IMG/VR virus record: IMGVR_UViG_3300047355_000120
Length of the DNA: 20,000 nucleotides
Reading direction: 5' to 3' (one strand)
Source: an uncultured virus (IMG/VR IMGVR_UViG_3300047355_000120)
Taxonomy: Duplodnaviria; Heunggongvirae; Uroviricota; Caudoviricetes
Shown here: in pieces, positions 16,639 through 19,948 of the stretch
Layout: each line of letters starts with the position of its first letter
How positions within the stretch are numbered: position 1 is the first letter of the stretch
Translations under genes and position numbers: made by a program
The notes under the pieces: generated by a model
The model's database searches: none
Told to the model about the DNA's origin: nothing
What the model saw: only the letters and a program-made list of their open reading frames with translations

Positions 16639-17262
16639 TTATTGTAATTTTGTTATGATTAATTGTGCAGGTGGTATGTCTATTCCCCAAGCAGCATCAG
16701 TAACTTGACCTGCTAGTGTACCAGCACCACCTGATGTTGGGTTTTGCATCCATAAGTAGTATTCTTCTATAGTGGATACTTGTATATATGTATTTATTTC
16801 TATACGATGTCTCTCCAAGGTGTTCTGCGATCTAAATCTTTCAGTTGATGTTGGTCCAACTTGAGCACCATTTACATCTACCATCTTAAAATTCAATATA
16901 GCAACAGTACCAACAGTTGCTTGGCCGTAATAAATTTGCTGTATGCTGTATGCACCTTTGATATTAAATGTTATTTTACCATCAGCACCTAACATGACTG
17001 CATCACCAGTAGAACCTTGTGCTGCGCCAAAAGTAATTATAGCTCCAGTGTTGTTATATCCTGGGTCAAACGTTGTTGTTGGGTAAAACGCTGATAATTT
17101 TTGTAAATACTGCTGATCTACTAGCGATTTTATCGATGTGAGTGTATATTGTACTGTAGGGTTGCCCTGTACTGGGTCTCCAGCTGAGTCTACAGTGTTT
17201 GATCCTATAATTTGATCTTGTAATTGTGGACTAGCTATAGGATATGAGGAGATTATTGCCAT
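16639..17262 (-). CDS. Virion structural protein (207 aa), MAIISSYP N-terminus with a possible C1q/BclA-like jelly-roll C-terminus
   Basis: N-terminus paralogous to the two large fibres; DGKITFNIKGAYSI resembles the C1q-like G-x-x-T-x-x-x-x-G-x-Y motif. First gene of the minus-strand operon. Confidence 0.7.
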   Translation of the reverse strand: MAIISSYPIASPQLQDQIIGSNTVDSAGDPVQGNPTVQYTLTSIKSLVDQQYLQKLSAFYPTTTFDPGYNNTGAIITFGAAQGSTGDAVMLGADGKITFNIKGAYSIQQIYYGQATVGTVAILNFKMVDVNGAQVGPTSTERFRSQNTLERHRIEINTYIQVSTIEEYYLWMQNPTSGGAGTLAGQVTDAAWGIDIPPAQLIITKLQ

Positions 17263-17324
17263 TTTTCTTTTTTTTTATTGCATTATGGAAAGCAGACTTT
17301 TGGTGAAGCGTGCTTGATTAGTAA

Positions 17325-17350
17325 TATCACACATTTTTAGCGAGGTTTAC
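17325..17350 (-). promoter_or_regulatory. Candidate late promoter GTAA-N16-GTGATA, copy 2
   Basis: Minus strand GTAA ACCTCGCTAAAAATGT GTGATA, about 60 nt upstream of the fibre operon. Confidence 0.5.
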
Positions 17351-17379
17351 TCTTATATATATAGGCATATTTTAAAAGT

Positions 17380-17424
17380 GTGACACTAGCCTGTTACTCT
17401 ATAGCTATAATAGGCTTATGTCAC
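17380..17424. repeat. Imperfect inverted repeat in the divergence region
   Basis: GTGACA-CT-AGCCT-GTTA ... TAAT-AGGCT-TA-TGTCAC. Confidence 0.75.
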
Positions 17425-17540
17425 TATAAAAGTATTGATTATATAGAATTATGGTGTTACCCCTATCCTCCTGACTATCAACGCATTACGGAAAATGAAT
17501 TTAGTTTGACGGGCCTCCCCCTGCTTTTTCAGATTATTCC

Positions 17541-17589
17541 TATATGTTTCACGTTTTGCATAGATTATATATATATGTTCACGTTTTGC
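17541..17589. repeat. Direct repeat TATATGTT(T)CACGTTTTGC x2
   Basis: Copies at 17541-17559 and 17572-17589 differ by one T. Confidence 0.8.
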
Positions 17590-17614
17590 CCAGAATAAAC
17601 TAACTAATACAATA

Positions 17615-17646
17615 TACATACTAAATACGATGTCACTTGGATAATA
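17615..17646 (+). promoter_or_regulatory. Bipartite early-type motif, copy 1
   Basis: TACATACTAAATACGA-TGTCACT-TGGATAATA. Confidence 0.75.
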
Positions 17647-17750
17647 TATATGTAACAAGTAATTAAAATAATAATAATTAATATTACAATAAGTGACAGT
17701 GTGGTATACATACAAACAAATATAATACAATAAACAATATTACACTAACA

Positions 17751-17782
17751 TACAAACTAAATACGACATGCAATGGATAATA
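17751..17782 (+). promoter_or_regulatory. Bipartite early-type motif, copy 2
   Basis: TACAAACTAAATACGA-CATGCAA-TGGATAATA, upstream of 17829. Confidence 0.8.
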
Positions 17783-17828
17783 TAAATGTAACTAATAAAC
17801 TAAATAATAATAAATAAAATATAATACT

Positions 17829-18056
17829 ATGACTAAATTAACTTCAAAAAGATTTGTAATCAGAAAATCACTAATCGGAAAAAATGTAACTATCGAATTC
17901 ACTAACAAAAAAGGTGTTAAACACACTTACAATCATGATAAAGCGTACAATATCATGAAAGCAAACTTAGAAAAAATGGCCTGCTTCATAAAGTACAAAT
18001 CATACACTGCTACTAATAATATTCCAGTAGTACTAAGAAATGTAGAATTAGTATAA
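17829..18056 (+). CDS. Basic hypothetical protein (75 aa), first gene of the plus-strand arm
   Basis: Lys-rich ORF with A-rich leader downstream of two motif copies. Confidence 0.85.
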   Translation: MTKLTSKRFVIRKSLIGKNVTIEFTNKKGVKHTYNHDKAYNIMKANLEKMACFIKYKSYTATNNIPVVLRNVELV

Positions 18057-18074
18057 TCTACCACTTTAAGTTCC

Positions 18075-18158
18075 ACTTGTTTCTATAAGTATAAAAATGC
18101 GAACAAGTAAAATGTCACTATGGTATACAAGTGTGTTCGATTCACACTGTGACAACTA
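18075..18158 (+). ncRNA. Putative structured RNA: hairpin plus anticodon-less tRNA-like element
   Basis: ACTTGTT/AACAAGT stem (18075-18108), then TGTCAC-TATGGTATACAA-GTGTG-TTCGATT-CACAC-T-GTGACA-ACTA: acceptor-like stem, GG D-loop-like linker and canonical T-arm. Confidence 0.55.
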
Positions 18159-18177
18159 ATCTAATAAATAATTAAAT

Positions 18178-18270
18178 ATGAATAATAACAGAAAATTAAC
18201 TGAAACGCAAAAAGGTAACTTAATACTTACTATCACTTTAATAATAATACTAACAAATATAATATCATGA
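18178..18270 (+). CDS. Small single-pass membrane peptide (30 aa)
   Basis: Translated by hand: MNNNRKLTETQKGNLILTITLIIILTNIIS. A-rich leader; ATGA overlap with the next ORF. Confidence 0.55.
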   Translation: MNNNRKLTETQKGNLILTITLIIILTNIIS

Positions 18271-18407
18271 ATTTAACTAAAATCTACAGCGAACTTCAAC
18301 AAATCGATGAGTTCCACGCTAACTTCAATCCAACTAGTGAATCAAAAGCTAGAATGAGAAAACTAATCTCACTAATACCAATATCTAAATACGATAGAGT
18401 AAGATGA
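18267..18407 (+). CDS. Small hypothetical protein (46 aa)
   Basis: MNLTKIYSELQQIDEFHANFNPTSESKARMRKLISLIPISKYDRVR; ATGA overlaps at both ends. Confidence 0.65.
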   Translation: MNLTKIYSELQQIDEFHANFNPTSESKARMRKLISLIPISKYDRVR

Positions 18408-18547
18408 TATACACTTTAAATACACATTACGCTAAAGATATTGATCTCACTTGGGCAATACTCAGACAAATGAGTGATGAACTAACAAGAGCAGATGTGG
18501 AAGGCATTGTGCTTACACACAAACTAAATACGATTGATAATGGATAA
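18404..18547 (+). CDS. Small hypothetical protein (47 aa)
   Basis: MIYTLNTHYAKDIDLTWAILRQMSDELTRADVEGIVLTHKLNTIDNG; ATGA overlap; 3' end runs through motif copy 3. Confidence 0.6.
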   Translation: MIYTLNTHYAKDIDLTWAILRQMSDELTRADVEGIVLTHKLNTIDNG

Positions 18548-18549
18548 TA
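18518..18549 (+). promoter_or_regulatory. Bipartite early-type motif, copy 3
   Basis: CACAAACTAAATACGA-TTGATAA-TGGATAATA; ATG at 18555. Confidence 0.8.
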
Positions 18550-18554
18550 ATAAT

Positions 18555-18779
18555 ATGAATACAGAATTTAAAGACTATCCCGCTTCAGAAATCAAAGCAA
18601 AGTTACAACAATGTCTTGACTATGAAGCAAAATACGGTGCAATACCACAAGTAACTGCTGTGAAAAAATGGTGTAACAGCTATGAATATCGCAAGCGTGA
18701 GTGGCAATGGCGTCAAAATGTCGCTAAATCAATCAATTTTAACACAGATTACACTAAACCTTATTACAATGAGTTATAA
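18555..18779 (+). CDS. Hypothetical protein (74 aa; start moved from 18534)
   Basis: The track start lies inside motif copy 3. ATG 18555 (MNTEFKDY) matches the motif-to-ATG spacing of copy 5. Confidence 0.75.
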   Translation: MNTEFKDYPASEIKAKLQQCLDYEAKYGAIPQVTAVKKWCNSYEYRKREWQWRQNVAKSINFNTDYTKPYYNEL

Positions 18780-19197
18780 AACATGGAAACTCGAGCAAGA
18801 ATCGTATGAAAATGCATTCGCTAGACGACTACTAGTCGAGTATAATATCAAAGAAGTCACAACACAGCGTCAAGCTAAAAATGGTACAAGAGAATTTGAA
18901 TTTCCTGTGTCAGCAACTTCACCTAAAACTAGGTATACTAACTATAAATCTAAAAATAAACTAAGATTAGCAGTATATAAATCTGGTTATGTAAGAAATG
19001 TAAACTCTTGCTCGTCTAACTATCAACTAAATCCAGTGTACAAATCAGAGCGTAGACAAATGTTTTTAACTGAAGAAGGTAAACTTAAAACATACATTTA
19101 TGATAGTATTACTAGAGTTAAAATATGGAATACTATGGCTAGAATGAAATTTATGCTAGACTTCTATTTAAAAAACTACTTTTATGGTAAATTATAA
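18769..19197 (+). CDS. Basic hypothetical protein (142 aa; start moved from 18682)
   Basis: ATG 18769 (MSYKTWKLEQ) overlaps the upstream gene end by 11 nt instead of ~100 nt. Confidence 0.75.
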   Translation: MSYKTWKLEQESYENAFARRLLVEYNIKEVTTQRQAKNGTREFEFPVSATSPKTRYTNYKSKNKLRLAVYKSGYVRNVNSCSSNYQLNPVYKSERRQMFLTEEGKLKTYIYDSITRVKIWNTMARMKFMLDFYLKNYFYGKL

Positions 19198-19229
19198 TAC
19201 AAACTAAATACGATAACTAACGGATAATA
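19198..19229 (+). promoter_or_regulatory. Bipartite early-type motif, copy 4
   Basis: TACAAACTAAATACGA-TAACTAA-CGGATAATA, fully intergenic; ATG at 19237. Confidence 0.8.
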
Positions 19230-19824: not shown

Positions 19825-19948
19825 AAAACTAAGACATAAGCACGTTAAACTACTTAAAATTACTAGGCAAGACGCTGAACGTATAGAACTTGAGTGGTTT
19901 AGGCGTTACAATTTACAAACTAAATACGAAAATAATTGGATAATATAA
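19814..19948 (+). CDS. Small basic hypothetical protein (44 aa)
   Basis: MNTKKLRHKHVKLLKITRQDAERIELEWFRRYNLQTKYENNWII; 3' end runs through motif copy 5. Confidence 0.6.
   Translation: MNTKKLRHKHVKLLKITRQDAERIELEWFRRYNLQTKYENNWII
19914..19945 (+). promoter_or_regulatory. Bipartite early-type motif, copy 5
   Basis: TACAAACTAAATACGA-AAATAAT-TGGATAATA; ATG at 19951. Confidence 0.8.

What the first reader, a model, noticed from the sequence alone, without database searches (positions are those of the whole stretch)
18113..18158. Minimal anticodon-less tRNA mimic between early genes
Seen: TGTCAC (18113-18118) pairs with GTGACA (18149-18154). GTGTG-TTCGATT-CACAC (18131-18147) is a 5-bp stem with a canonical 7-nt TTCGANT T-loop. 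The 12-nt linker TATGGTATACAA carries a D-loop-like TGGTA. The 3' end is ACTA where NCCA would be, and there is no anticodon arm. Established: acceptor plus T-arm with D/T-loop contact is the shape recognised by RNase P, RNase Z, CCA-adding enzyme and EF-Tu, as in tmRNA and bacterial Y RNA tRNA-like domains. Inference: an mRNA processing signal or a decoy RNA against host tRNA-sensing or tRNA-cleaving defences.
Basis: partly seen in the sequence, partly recalled or inferred. Interest (0 to 1): 0.72.

Follow-up and report, generated by a model that had tools for sequence, protein, structure and literature searches.

The report
Phage anticodon-less tRNA top-half RNA
A marine phage carries a 43-base gene-like element shaped like only the top half of a tRNA; dozens of other phages keep the same shape while the letters change, so it is a real structured RNA of untested function.

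Summary
On this sequence alone the fold is not significant (z -1.3 to -1.4). Comparison makes it decisive.

- **Conservation.** 26 of 45 relatives of the upstream ORF carry the element downstream of it. An IMG/VR motif scan gave 73 non-tRNA copies with both stems among 117 matches. The same scan of prokaryote genomes gave 3 of 120.
- **Covariation.** Every stem pair shows compensatory changes.
- **Invariant parts.** TTCGATT, the G53:C61-type closing pair, a covarying lone pair around an xTGGx loop (57 of 60), and A73-C74.
- **The 3' end.** "ACTA" is the native tRNA-gene 3' context. Two Flavobacteriaceae genomes encode C74 but never CCA (48 of 50 tRNAs), and the phage's own tRNAs end the same way.
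- **Other phages.** A crAss-like RefSeq genome holds a member; Polaribacter phage P12002L holds a variant.
- **Prior description.** No Rfam match, and six literature searches found no description.

Best reading: a transcribed tRNA top-half, cut out by host tRNA-maturation enzymes. Whether the cut or the freed RNA is the function stays open. This scan has noted similar but not identical mini-tRNAs in other phages.

The parts
17620..17646 (+). Promoter-like repeat ACTAAATACGA-N8-GGATAATA, copy 1 of 5 in the window. Inferred start region of the transcription unit that holds the element.
   Evidence: 5 exact copies on the + strand, 0 expected in 200 shuffles. Its role as a promoter is inferred, not shown.
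17756..17782 (+). Promoter-like repeat, copy 2, 47 nt before the ORF start. The next copy is at 18523.
17829..18056 (+). Upstream ORF of 75 aa with no family. It is the conserved neighbour of the element.
   Evidence: ORF; no PHROG or Pfam match; 45 IMG/VR loci encode relatives at 62-100% identity.
18113..18118 (+). Acceptor-stem 5' strand, TGTCAC (T1:A72 type).
   Evidence: Six of six pairs covary in A6.
18119..18125 (+). Lone Watson-Crick pair T18119:A18125 closing the pentaloop ATGGT. This is a one-pair D-arm mimic carrying the G18/G19-like GG.
   Evidence: 57 of 60 unique copies are Watson-Crick here (AT 32, CG 11, TA 8, GC 6). Shuffles average 22.7, and 0 of 2000 reach 57.
18126..18130 (+). 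Spacer TACAA. A18130 can pair with T18148.
   Evidence: Spacer length is 3-6 nt across the family.
18131..18147 (+). T arm: GTGTG, TTCGATT, CACAC, with a G:C pair closing the loop (G53:C61 type).
   Evidence: Five of five pairs covary, and the closing pair is G:C in 50 of 51.
18148..18148 (+). Junction nucleotide T. It is unpaired, or pairs with A18130.
   Evidence: Relatives have 0-1 nt here.
18149..18154 (+). Acceptor-stem 3' strand, GTGACA.
18155..18159 (+). A73-like discriminator, encoded C74, then TAA. This is the same trailer as the phage's tRNA-Met, tRNA-Gln and mini-tmRNA.
   Evidence: A-C follows the stem in 25 of 25 readable homology-defined copies.
18178..18270 (+). Next ORF (30 aa). 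Its ATG lies 23 nt after A18155. Whether it is a real gene is not shown.

Best explanation
Window 18113-18155 encodes a small structured RNA that copies the top half of a tRNA.

Structure:
- A 6-bp acceptor helix stacked on a 5-6-bp T stem, about 12 pairs in all, as in a tRNA.
- A canonical T loop, UUCGAUU, closed by G:C.
- A D arm shrunk to one base pair around an xUGGx loop. Its GG can dock on the T loop and form the tRNA elbow.
- No anticodon arm.

Proposed mechanism:
1. The element is transcribed inside an early polycistronic mRNA of a phage of marine Flavobacteriia.
2. The host's tRNA-maturation enzymes treat it as a pre-tRNA. RNase P cuts before T18113.
3. The 3' end is made at A18155/C18156, as for the host's own CCA-less tRNA genes.
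4. The CCA-adding enzyme completes the tail.
5. This severs the mRNA about 20 nt before the next start codon and releases a 43-46-nt minihelix.

Shown: the structure, its conservation and covariation, the strand, the tRNA-type flanks, and its spread among phages.

Inferred: transcription, both cuts, CCA addition, and which of the two outcomes (cut mRNA or free RNA) is selected for.
For: 1. Structure under selection.
- A2: 10 type-A copies, ungapped MAFFT. 120 of 120 cells pair, 7 pairs have compensatory change, and 0 of 500 shuffles reach the covariation score.
- A7: 9 type-B copies from homology-defined loci, ungapped. 99.1% of cells pair, with 6 compensatory pairs.
- A6: 51 diverse copies, model-fitted and preselected. 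548 of 548 cells pair, 11 of 11 pairs are compensatory, and the score is 1.04 against 0.22 for shuffles.

2. Test not dependent on preselection. The motif ATGG..TTCGATT..ACTAA does not itself demand pairing.
- In IMG/VR, 76 of 117 matches have 5/5 T-stem pairs and at least 5/6 acceptor pairs. Three of these lie in real tRNAs, leaving 73.
- The 73 comprise 50 unique sequences, 35 different acceptor strands and 22 different T stems.
- In prokaryote genomes, 3 of 120 matches pass.

3. tRNA-specific detail.
- TTCGATT is invariant and the closing pair is G:C in 50 of 51.
- The lone pair is Watson-Crick in 57 of 60.
- G.U wobbles occur on the + strand (5 cells in A7).
- Flanking ORFs are co-oriented in 7 of 8 further loci; the eighth had no ORF.

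4. tRNA-type 3' flank.
- A-C follows the stem in 25 of 25 readable homology-defined copies. ACTAA accounts for 18, ACTAT for 4 and ACAAA for 3.
- The phage's tRNA-Met, tRNA-Gln and mini-tmRNA end in A-CTAA.
- All 20 unique phage tRNAs have C74.
- In two Flavobacteriaceae genomes N74 is C in 48 of 50 unique tRNAs, N75 is A or T, and CCA is never encoded.

5. Enzymology, from papers.
- RNase P cleaves acceptor/T-stem/T-loop hairpins at the canonical site and also processes phage M3 and C4 RNAs and mRNAs (passages of PMC11143913).
- Plant mitochondrial t-elements mark mRNA ends (abstract of PMC1920247).
Against: - No RNA ends were seen. The four RNA-library runs gave assembled contigs only. Contigs run unbroken from the ORF through the element to 18160 in two runs (X15, X16). 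That could be unprocessed RNA or DNA carry-over.
- One contig ends at 18117, followed by Illumina adapter sequence. That is 5 nt inside the acceptor strand, not at the predicted RNase P site.
- Genomes hold only 1-3 copies, so this is not a general punctuation system.
- Some relatives have nothing at the same position, or a hairpin without a T loop that is also followed by ACTAA. The trailer word is therefore not exclusive to tRNA-like shapes.
- ACTAA is also part of a repeated promoter-like motif.
- Five cultured relatives and crAss001 lack the element, so it is dispensable.
- A6 was built from copies that I had already filtered for pairing, and it is fitted to the model.
Confidence: 0.6

Rival explanations
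1. The freed minihelix is the product. It acts in trans as a mimic of the tRNA acceptor end and elbow. It would soak up or mislead a tRNA-binding factor, such as a host defence toxin that modifies or cuts tRNA acceptor ends, or a maturation or quality-control enzyme. The mRNA cut would be incidental.
For: - The elbow (GG loop plus T loop) and A73 are kept far more strictly than a mere cleavage signal would seem to need.
- It travels with other translation-directed RNAs. An 81-108-nt tag-less tmRNA-like RNA is present in G000 and in 4 of 4 close relatives, next to a tRNA-Met.
- Some copies sit in tRNA clusters or in front of another conserved hairpin rather than a gene.
- The downstream genes differ between relatives while the element stays.
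Against: - No partner was identified.
- Five complete relatives encode no CCA-adding enzyme family of their own (PF01743).
- The acceptor sequence varies freely, so any partner must read shape rather than sequence.
- With no anticodon arm, it cannot decoy anticodon nucleases.
Confidence: 0.22
2. The element stays attached to the mRNA and acts in cis. It would be a protective 5' or 3' end structure after a single cut, or a ribosome-recruiting structure just upstream of a Shine-Dalgarno-less start codon.
For: - In 41 of 62 unique copies the first ATG lies 14-25 nt after the acceptor end. It is 16 nt before the annotated primase start in crAss-like phage cr53_1.
- RNA-library contigs run through the element uncut.
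Against: - The phage's real tRNAs have the same spacing to the next ATG, 22-23 nt. Dense gene packing explains this.
- The first ATG was not verified as a gene start in most copies.
- Contigs cannot show whether the RNA is cut.
Confidence: 0.1
3. It is a decaying tRNA gene, or the tRNA 3' fragment of an integration site, with no function of its own.
For: The shape can be derived from a tRNA by losing the D stem and anticodon arm. Phages of this group carry tRNAs nearby.
Against: - Compensatory changes occur on both strands of both stems across at least 50 unique copies.
- The loops are invariant.
- No relative has a full tRNA at the site.
- No tyrosine integrase (PF00589) is present in G000 or in 4 complete relatives.
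- The 5' strand and the GG loop would not be part of an att fragment.
Confidence: 0.03
4. It is a transcription terminator or a protein-binding DNA palindrome.
For: It contains an inverted repeat and lies between genes.
Against: - No T run follows it. The terminator scan of 17200-18500 found 0 sites.
- G.U wobbles occur on one strand only.
- The T loop and GG loop are asymmetric and invariant.
Confidence: 0.03

Closest known systems
t-elements of plant mitochondria (PMC1920247, abstract read; 10.1101/2024.09.09.612099, abstract read)
   Same: Both are tRNA-like acceptor/T-arm structures inside mRNAs that do not decode. t-elements are thought to be cut by RNase P and/or RNase Z to make mRNA ends. 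[quoted passage not shown]
   Different: t-elements are organellar, not viral, and are derived from local tRNA genes. They have no shared consensus such as the lone pair with an xUGGx loop plus an invariant T loop. For t-elements the RNA ends have been mapped; here they have not.
tmRNA tRNA-like domain and tag-less 'TLD-only' mini-tmRNAs (Rfam RF00023). One lies 2.4 kb downstream in this same phage, at L171:584-668.
   Same: Acceptor stem, T arm and a stem-less D-loop mimic, with no anticodon arm. The 3' flank is the same, A-CTAA.
   Different: - The defining G3:U70 is absent here. The window has T3:A70, and G:U occurs in 1 of 50 cells of that pair.
- There is no P2 helix.
- There is no Rfam tmRNA match here at E<=10, while the phage's own mini-tmRNA scores 38 bits.
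Synthetic acceptor/T-stem-loop minihelix substrates of RNase P (passages of PMC11143913). Their use with CCA-adding enzyme and synthetases is recalled, not read.
   Same: The same 12-pair coaxial helix capped by a T loop. These substrates are cleaved by RNase P at the canonical site.
   Different: Those are laboratory constructs without a D-loop mimic. This element is natural, conserved, and adds the GG loop.
mascRNA / menRNA at the 3' ends of MALAT1 and NEAT1
   Same: A tRNA-like module embedded in a longer transcript, excised by RNase P and RNase Z and given CCA.
   Different: These are eukaryotic and keep a small anticodon-like arm. There is no sequence relation, and Rfam gave no match here.
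Phage non-tRNA RNase P substrates: phi80 M3 RNA and the P1/P7 C4 antisense RNA (listed in PMC11143913)
   Same: Phage-encoded small RNAs matured by host RNase P.
   Different: I did not compare their sequences or folds here. As I recall, they are not acceptor/T-arm/elbow mimics.
Other anticodon-less mini-tRNAs noted by this scan in other phages (e1-5905807, e1-5743525, e1-5472628)
   Same: Acceptor plus T arm only, in phage or giant-virus tRNA or tmRNA neighbourhoods. They received the same tentative reading.
   Different: These are different sequences; the look-up by sequence found none like this one. Each was reported from one narrow lineage. The present family has at least 50 unique copies and reaches crAss-like phages.

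Membership tests
Canonical tRNA (Rfam RF00005 / ARAGORN) | Anticodon arm with a 7-nt loop | tested here: not met
   Only 12 nt lie between the acceptor and the T stem. ARAGORN finds 0 genes in the window. There is no RF00005 match at E<=10.
Canonical tRNA (Rfam RF00005 / ARAGORN) | T arm: 5-bp stem, G53:C61, loop TTCRANN | tested here: met
   GTGTG-TTCGATT-CACAC. The closing pair is G:C in 50 of 51 relatives.
Canonical tRNA (Rfam RF00005 / ARAGORN) | D stem of 3-4 pairs | tested here: not met
   One covarying pair only. The Polaribacter phage P12002L variant has a 4-pair stem.
tmRNA tRNA-like domain / TLD-only mini-tmRNA | G3:U70 alanine identity pair | tested here: not met
   The window has T3:A70. 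G:U occurs in 1 of 50 cells at that pair in A6.
tmRNA tRNA-like domain / TLD-only mini-tmRNA | Match to the Rfam tmRNA model | tested here: not met
   No match in 17000-19000 at E<=10. The phage's own mini-tmRNA gives 38 bits, E 1.4e-13.
t-element-type processing signal | Acceptor/T-arm fold without an anticodon arm, inside a transcribed spacer and on the gene strand | tested here: met
   Transcription is inferred from gene order and from RNA-library contigs.
t-element-type processing signal | RNA ends mapped to its borders | tested here: inconclusive
   Only contigs were available. One ends at 18117 followed by adapter sequence. Others stop at 18110 or run on to 18160.
t-element-type processing signal | Post-transcriptional CCA addition | not testable with these tools
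   This needs raw small-RNA reads or an enzyme assay.
Intrinsic terminator | G+C-rich hairpin followed by a T run | tested here: not met
   0 terminator-like sites in 17200-18500. The tail reads ACTAATCTAATAAA.
tRNA-fragment attachment site | An integrase in the genome | tested here: not met
   PF00589 is found in 0 of 5 records, 4 of them complete.
tRNA-fragment attachment site | Identity to the 3' end of a host tRNA gene | not tested
   The host is unknown. Compensatory change on both strands argues against it.
The phage minihelix family defined here (models R1, R2) | Scores with a model built without it | tested here: met
   R1, built from 10 type-A relatives, hits window 18109-18162 at 46.1 bits, E 2.4e-7. 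tRNA and tmRNA T arms score 28.6 bits or less.

The most novel reading that the evidence does not exclude
The excised, CCA-tailed minihelix is a working trans-acting RNA: a new class of phage 'elbow RNA' that exploits enzymes which read tRNA shape without the anticodon.

One concrete form is charging by leucyl-tRNA synthetase. [quoted passage not shown] This family conserves A73 and the GG/T-loop features, but it lacks U8 and a variable arm. A charged minihelix could feed a non-ribosomal aminoacyl transfer.

Another form is a sponge for defence toxins that act on tRNA acceptor ends.
Probability: 0.2. Interest if true: 0.9.

Novelty: new variant of a known kind. Interest (0 to 1): 0.75.

Why it matters
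Phage tRNA genes are usually explained by codon supply. A conserved tRNA that cannot decode shows that phages also exploit the non-decoding side of tRNA biology: maturation enzymes, the elbow and the acceptor end.

The family is compact (about 43 nt), sharply defined and abundant in uncultured marine Flavobacteriia phages. It is present in a crAss-like gut phage genome in RefSeq, yet it is unannotated and has no Rfam match. It therefore offers three things:
- A ready covariance model for annotation.
- A natural minimal substrate for RNase P, RNase Z and the CCA-adding enzyme of Bacteroidota.
- A testable case of tRNA-style punctuation, or tRNA decoying, in a bacterial virus.

The side observation may also interest people who study tRNA processing. 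The two Flavobacteriaceae genomes examined encode C74 but not C75-A76 in 48 of 50 unique tRNAs.

Tried and rejected
- **RNA runs.** All four RNA runs are stored as contigs, so no starts, ends or strand could be read. Stops at 18110 (X18) and at 18117 plus adapter (X17), and read-through to 18160 (X15, X16), are compatible with several readings. I use none of them as evidence. The drop in cover after 18160 reflects swapped downstream DNA in related strains (135 and 489 other letters between the two sides).
- **Single-sequence folding.** Not significant.
- **MAFFT alignment A1 of both subtypes.** It put the gaps next to the T loop and misaligned the T stems, so I did not use it for counts.
- **Alignments A3, A4 and A5.** These model-search alignments contained weak junk hits and were not used.
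- **Model R1 on the type-B subtype.** It scores these copies at only 12.6-17.6 bits. I treated them separately in A7.
- **BLAST against cultured phages.** Type A found only T arms of real tRNAs. Type B found nothing. The window region itself found nothing either.
- **Model R2 on cultured or named records.** It found no member in Flavobacterium phage elemoE, Cellulophaga phages phi19:3 and phi38:1, Tenacibaculum phage Gundel_1, MW202828 or Bacteroides phage crAss001. The 26-bit hit in phi38:1 is the T arm of a full tmRNA.
- **Phage-encoded partners.** No CCA-adding enzyme family PF01743 in 5 complete relatives. No Pfam or PHROG family for the flanking small ORFs.
- **Limnohabitans phage DC31 and Lactococcus phage PMBT69 hits.** These are irregular tRNA-like stretches. 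I did not resolve them.
- **Literature.** Six searches aimed at a prior description found none. The single 'tRNA-like' passage in a crAss preprint concerns low-scoring tRNA pseudogenes. Subscription journals are not in the library, and I opened no supplements.
- **Promoter motif pattern.** My first pattern had the wrong spacing and found nothing.

Full report
**What is in the window.** The coordinates and letters of the finding are correct.
- TGTCAC (18113-18118) pairs with GTGACA (18149-18154).
- GTGTG-TTCGATT-CACAC occupies 18131-18147.
- The 12-nt linker TATGGTATACAA lies between them.
- A18155 follows, then CTAA.
- The minimum-energy fold adds A18130:T18148, so the two helices form one stack of 12 pairs, the length of the acceptor/T-arm helix of a tRNA.

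On its own the fold is unremarkable: z -1.40 for 61 nt and -1.26 for 43 nt, with 16 and 22 of 200 shuffles folding as well. ARAGORN calls no tRNA in the window. Rfam at E<=10 over 17000-19000 gives no + strand match. The only overlapping hit is a sub-threshold minus-strand match to RF04354 (21.4 bits, gathering score 65.7, E 0.26), aligned over the element's acceptor and T-arm on the opposite strand.

**Where it comes from.** The window is bases 16200-36199 of a 42,651-bp IMG/VR virus record, estimated 65% complete.
- Minus-strand ORFs in the window are tail-fibre proteins.
- Outside the window lie portal, large terminase, GroEL/GroES, DNA ligase, a sigma factor and Erf.
- The terminase is 44% identical to those of Flavobacterium 'elemo' podoviruses and 36-38% identical to Cellulophaga phages.
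- DNA runs that hold the stretch are seawater metagenomes.
- The host is therefore probably a marine member of the Flavobacteriia. This is an inference.

The element lies on the + strand among small ORFs of no known family. It is 57 nt after a 75-aa ORF and 23 nt before the next ATG. Five exact copies of a promoter-like repeat, ACTAAATACGA-N8-GGATAATA, stand on the same strand. Two precede the 75-aa ORF and the next is at 18523, so the element probably sits inside a polycistronic transcript. This too is an inference.

**Relatives.** Forty-five IMG/VR loci encode relatives of the 75-aa ORF at 62-100% identity.
- In 26 of them a minihelix of the same design lies within 300 nt downstream.
- The other 19 have nothing recognisable, or a hairpin without a T loop.

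Two subtypes occur.
- Type A, with the window's own variant, has the linker (A/T)ATGGT(T/A)...
- Type B has CTTGGAGCAGAG and a 6+6-pair stack.

The stems differ from locus to locus while pairing is kept.
- Acceptor examples: TGACAT/ATGTCA, AGACAT/ATGTCT, TGCCAT/ATGGCA, GGTGAT/ATCACC, TCTCGT/ACGAGA.
- T-stem examples: GTGAG/CTCAC, AGTGG/CCACT, GTAGGT/ACCTAC.

On ungapped MAFFT alignments that were not fitted to any structure:
- Type A (A2, 10 sequences) has 120 of 120 cells paired and 7 pairs with changes on both sides.
- Type B (A7, 9 sequences) has 99.1% of 117 cells paired and 6 such pairs, with 5 G.U cells on the + strand.
- In both, 0 of 500 shuffles reach the covariation score, and sliding the partners by 1-3 columns drops pairing to 19-56%.

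**A wider sample and its control.** I scanned IMG/VR for ATGG-N10-13-TTCGATT-N11-12-ACTAA, a pattern that does not itself require any pairing.
- 76 matches have a perfect 5-pair T stem and at least 5 of 6 acceptor pairs.
- 3 of those lie inside ARAGORN tRNAs, leaving 73 minihelices.
- The 73 comprise 50 unique sequences, 35 different acceptor strands and 22 different T stems.

The design is therefore virus-specific and far above background.

A model-fitted alignment of 51 of these copies (A6) has 548 of 548 cells paired, compensatory change in 11 of 11 pairs, and a covariation score of 1.04 against 0.22 in shuffles. That alignment is preselected for pairing and fitted to the model, so it illustrates the diversity rather than proving the fold.

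**The parts that do not vary.**
- The loop TTCGATT.
- The G:C pair that closes it (50 of 51). This corresponds to G53:C61 of tRNA.
- The GG of the linker.
- The A after the acceptor stem.

A third structural feature emerged. The base before and the base after the five-letter loop xTGGx covary as a Watson-Crick pair, as in AATGGTT, TATGGTA, GATGGTC, CATGGTG and CTTGGAG. It is Watson-Crick in 57 of 60 unique copies, against a shuffle mean of 22.7, with 0 of 2000 shuffles reaching 57. In the window this pair is T18119:A18125. I read it as a D arm reduced to one pair whose GG docks on the T loop to make the tRNA elbow. The docking is inferred from tRNA structure, not computed.

**The 3' end.** It is instead the native context.
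- The phage's tRNA-Met and tRNA-Gln, 2.5-3.4 kb downstream on the same strand, both end ...A-CTAAC.
- All 20 unique tRNAs in the fetched phage loci have C at position 74.
- In 50 unique tRNA genes from two Flavobacteriaceae genomes, N74 is C in 48, N75 is A (33) or T (17), and CCA is never encoded.
- Among the homology-defined minihelices, A-C follows the stem in 25 of 25 readable copies: ACTAA 18, ACTAT 4, ACAAA 3.

The element thus carries the flank of a tRNA gene of its host lineage. This is the strongest indirect argument that it is matured like one.

Two cautions apply. The non-T-loop hairpins found at the same position in some relatives are also followed by ACTAA. The word is also over-represented in the early region, 51 copies against 25 expected, partly because of the promoter-like motif.

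**Distribution.**
- Model R2 finds one strong copy in this genome and 1-2 in four close complete relatives.
- It finds 1-3 in five more distant records of 65-175 kb. Of the nine matches there, five lie within about 7 kb of a record end and two more within 13 kb.
- In the eight of these loci that I examined, the nearest ORFs lie on the element's strand in 7; the eighth has no ORF of 45 aa or more nearby.
- Cultured relatives lack it: elemoE, phi19:3, phi38:1, Gundel_1 and the uncultured MW202828, and also Bacteroides phage crAss001.
- The crAss-like phage cr53_1 (NC_055889) has a clear, unannotated member at 59.8 bits, 16 nt before the annotated primase start.
- Polaribacter phage P12002L has a variant in which the D-arm mimic is a 4-pair stem (32.5 bits).
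- A Listeria phage tRNA cluster holds a looser acceptor / 3-pair D / T-arm relic.

**Mechanism.** RNase P cleaves acceptor/T-stem/T-loop hairpins at the canonical site. It also processes phage M3 and C4 RNAs and some mRNAs (passages of PMC11143913). Plant mitochondrial t-elements, the closest natural analogue, mark mRNA ends (abstract of PMC1920247). [quoted passage not shown]

I therefore think the element is cut out of the early transcript by RNase P before T18113 and by the 3' tRNA pathway at A18155/C18156, and then given CCA. What selection acts on is open.
- Only 1-3 copies per genome, the strict conservation of the elbow, and the company of a tag-less tmRNA-like RNA and an initiator-like tRNA-Met lean towards the freed RNA mattering.
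- The position just upstream of start codons fits punctuation, but real tRNAs here have the same spacing.

I give 0.6 to 'processed like a tRNA, function either or both', 0.22 to a purely trans-acting product, and 0.1 to a cis-acting attached structure. Pseudogene, att-site, terminator and palindrome readings are contradicted by the covariation, by the absence of an integrase, and by the absence of a T run.

**RNA evidence.** All four RNA runs were available only as contigs. They show the region in RNA libraries, which may contain DNA.
- Contigs run from the ORF through the element to 18160 (X15, X16).
- One contig ends at 18117 followed by adapter sequence (X17).
- Others stop at 18110 (X18).

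None of this can decide processing, and I do not count it either way. It does show that related strains share the sequence up to 18160 and differ beyond it.

**Novelty.**
- No Rfam family matches.
- Six full-text searches found no description. The library lacks most subscription journals.
- Earlier notes of this scan describe other anticodon-less mini-tRNAs in other phages, but none with this sequence, and each from a narrow lineage.

I class the element as a new variant of a known kind, the tRNA-like processing or mimic element. It is notable for its size, sharp consensus and breadth.

The boldest reading not excluded is that it is charged. [quoted passage not shown] The family keeps A73 and the GG/T-loop features of that core, though it lacks U8 and a variable arm.

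Noticed in passing
L171:584-668 (G000 36583-36667, about 380 nt beyond the window end): An 85-nt tag-less tmRNA-like RNA. It has acceptor GGGAGTG/CACTTCC with G3:U70, T arm GGCGG-TTCGACT-CCGCC, A73 and CTAA, and lies 3 nt before tRNA-Met. Rfam tmRNA gives 38 bits (below the gathering score of 47), E 1.4e-13, spanning model positions 1-374 with the middle deleted. ARAGORN calls no tmRNA. Similar 81-108-nt matches occur in 4 of 4 close relatives.
   Followed up: partly
L171:671-743 and L171:1494-1566: tRNA-Met(CAT) with three G:C pairs in the anticodon stem and T1:A72 (initiator-like), and tRNA-Gln(TTG). Both are followed by CTAAC and then an ATG 22-23 nt later.
   Followed up: partly
window 17620-17646, 17756-17782, 18523-18549, 19203-19229, 19919-19945 (+): Five exact copies of ACTAAATACGA-N8-GGATAATA, each shortly before an ATG, with 0 expected by shuffling. 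Further copies lie beyond the window. This is probably a phage-specific early or middle promoter; the phage encodes a sigma factor.
   Followed up: partly
L292-L321 (two Flavobacteriaceae genomes): tRNA genes encode C74 (48 of 50 unique) followed by A or T, and never CCA. I do not know whether this is described.
   Followed up: partly
L029, L030, L032, L033, L043, L046, downstream of the ORF homologue: At the position of the minihelix these relatives carry a long hairpin without a T loop (outer stem GTGACA/TGTCAC type), also followed by ACTAA.
   Followed up: no
L060, L061, L158: Three different minihelices are followed by the same conserved stretch, which holds a hairpin GCTAGT...ACTAGC, rather than by a start codon.
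   Followed up: no
L327:1507-1866 (Cellulophaga phage phi38:1, KC821614, about 26799-27160, minus strand): A full tmRNA (Rfam 87.6 bits; ARAGORN gives a tag peptide) in a stretch where the record annotates only a hypothetical protein, gp041, on the other strand.
   Followed up: partly
window 18160: Contigs of related strains share the sequence up to 18160 and then carry 135 or 489 other letters before rejoining at 18404 or 18519. L009 likewise diverges right after ACTAATCT. The element sits at a boundary of swapped gene cassettes.
   Followed up: partly
L331:380-425 (Listeria phage LP-125 tRNA cluster), L332:330-430 (Limnohabitans phage DC31), L333:380-450 (Lactococcus phage PMBT69): Unannotated, irregular tRNA-like stretches next to annotated tRNAs. 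The Listeria one has an acceptor, a 3-pair D-like stem and a T arm, but no anticodon arm.
   Followed up: partly
L170:14686-16233 and L170:9518-10123 (minus strand): Phage-encoded GroEL and GroES homologues (PHROG E 2e-130 and 5.5e-27).
   Followed up: no
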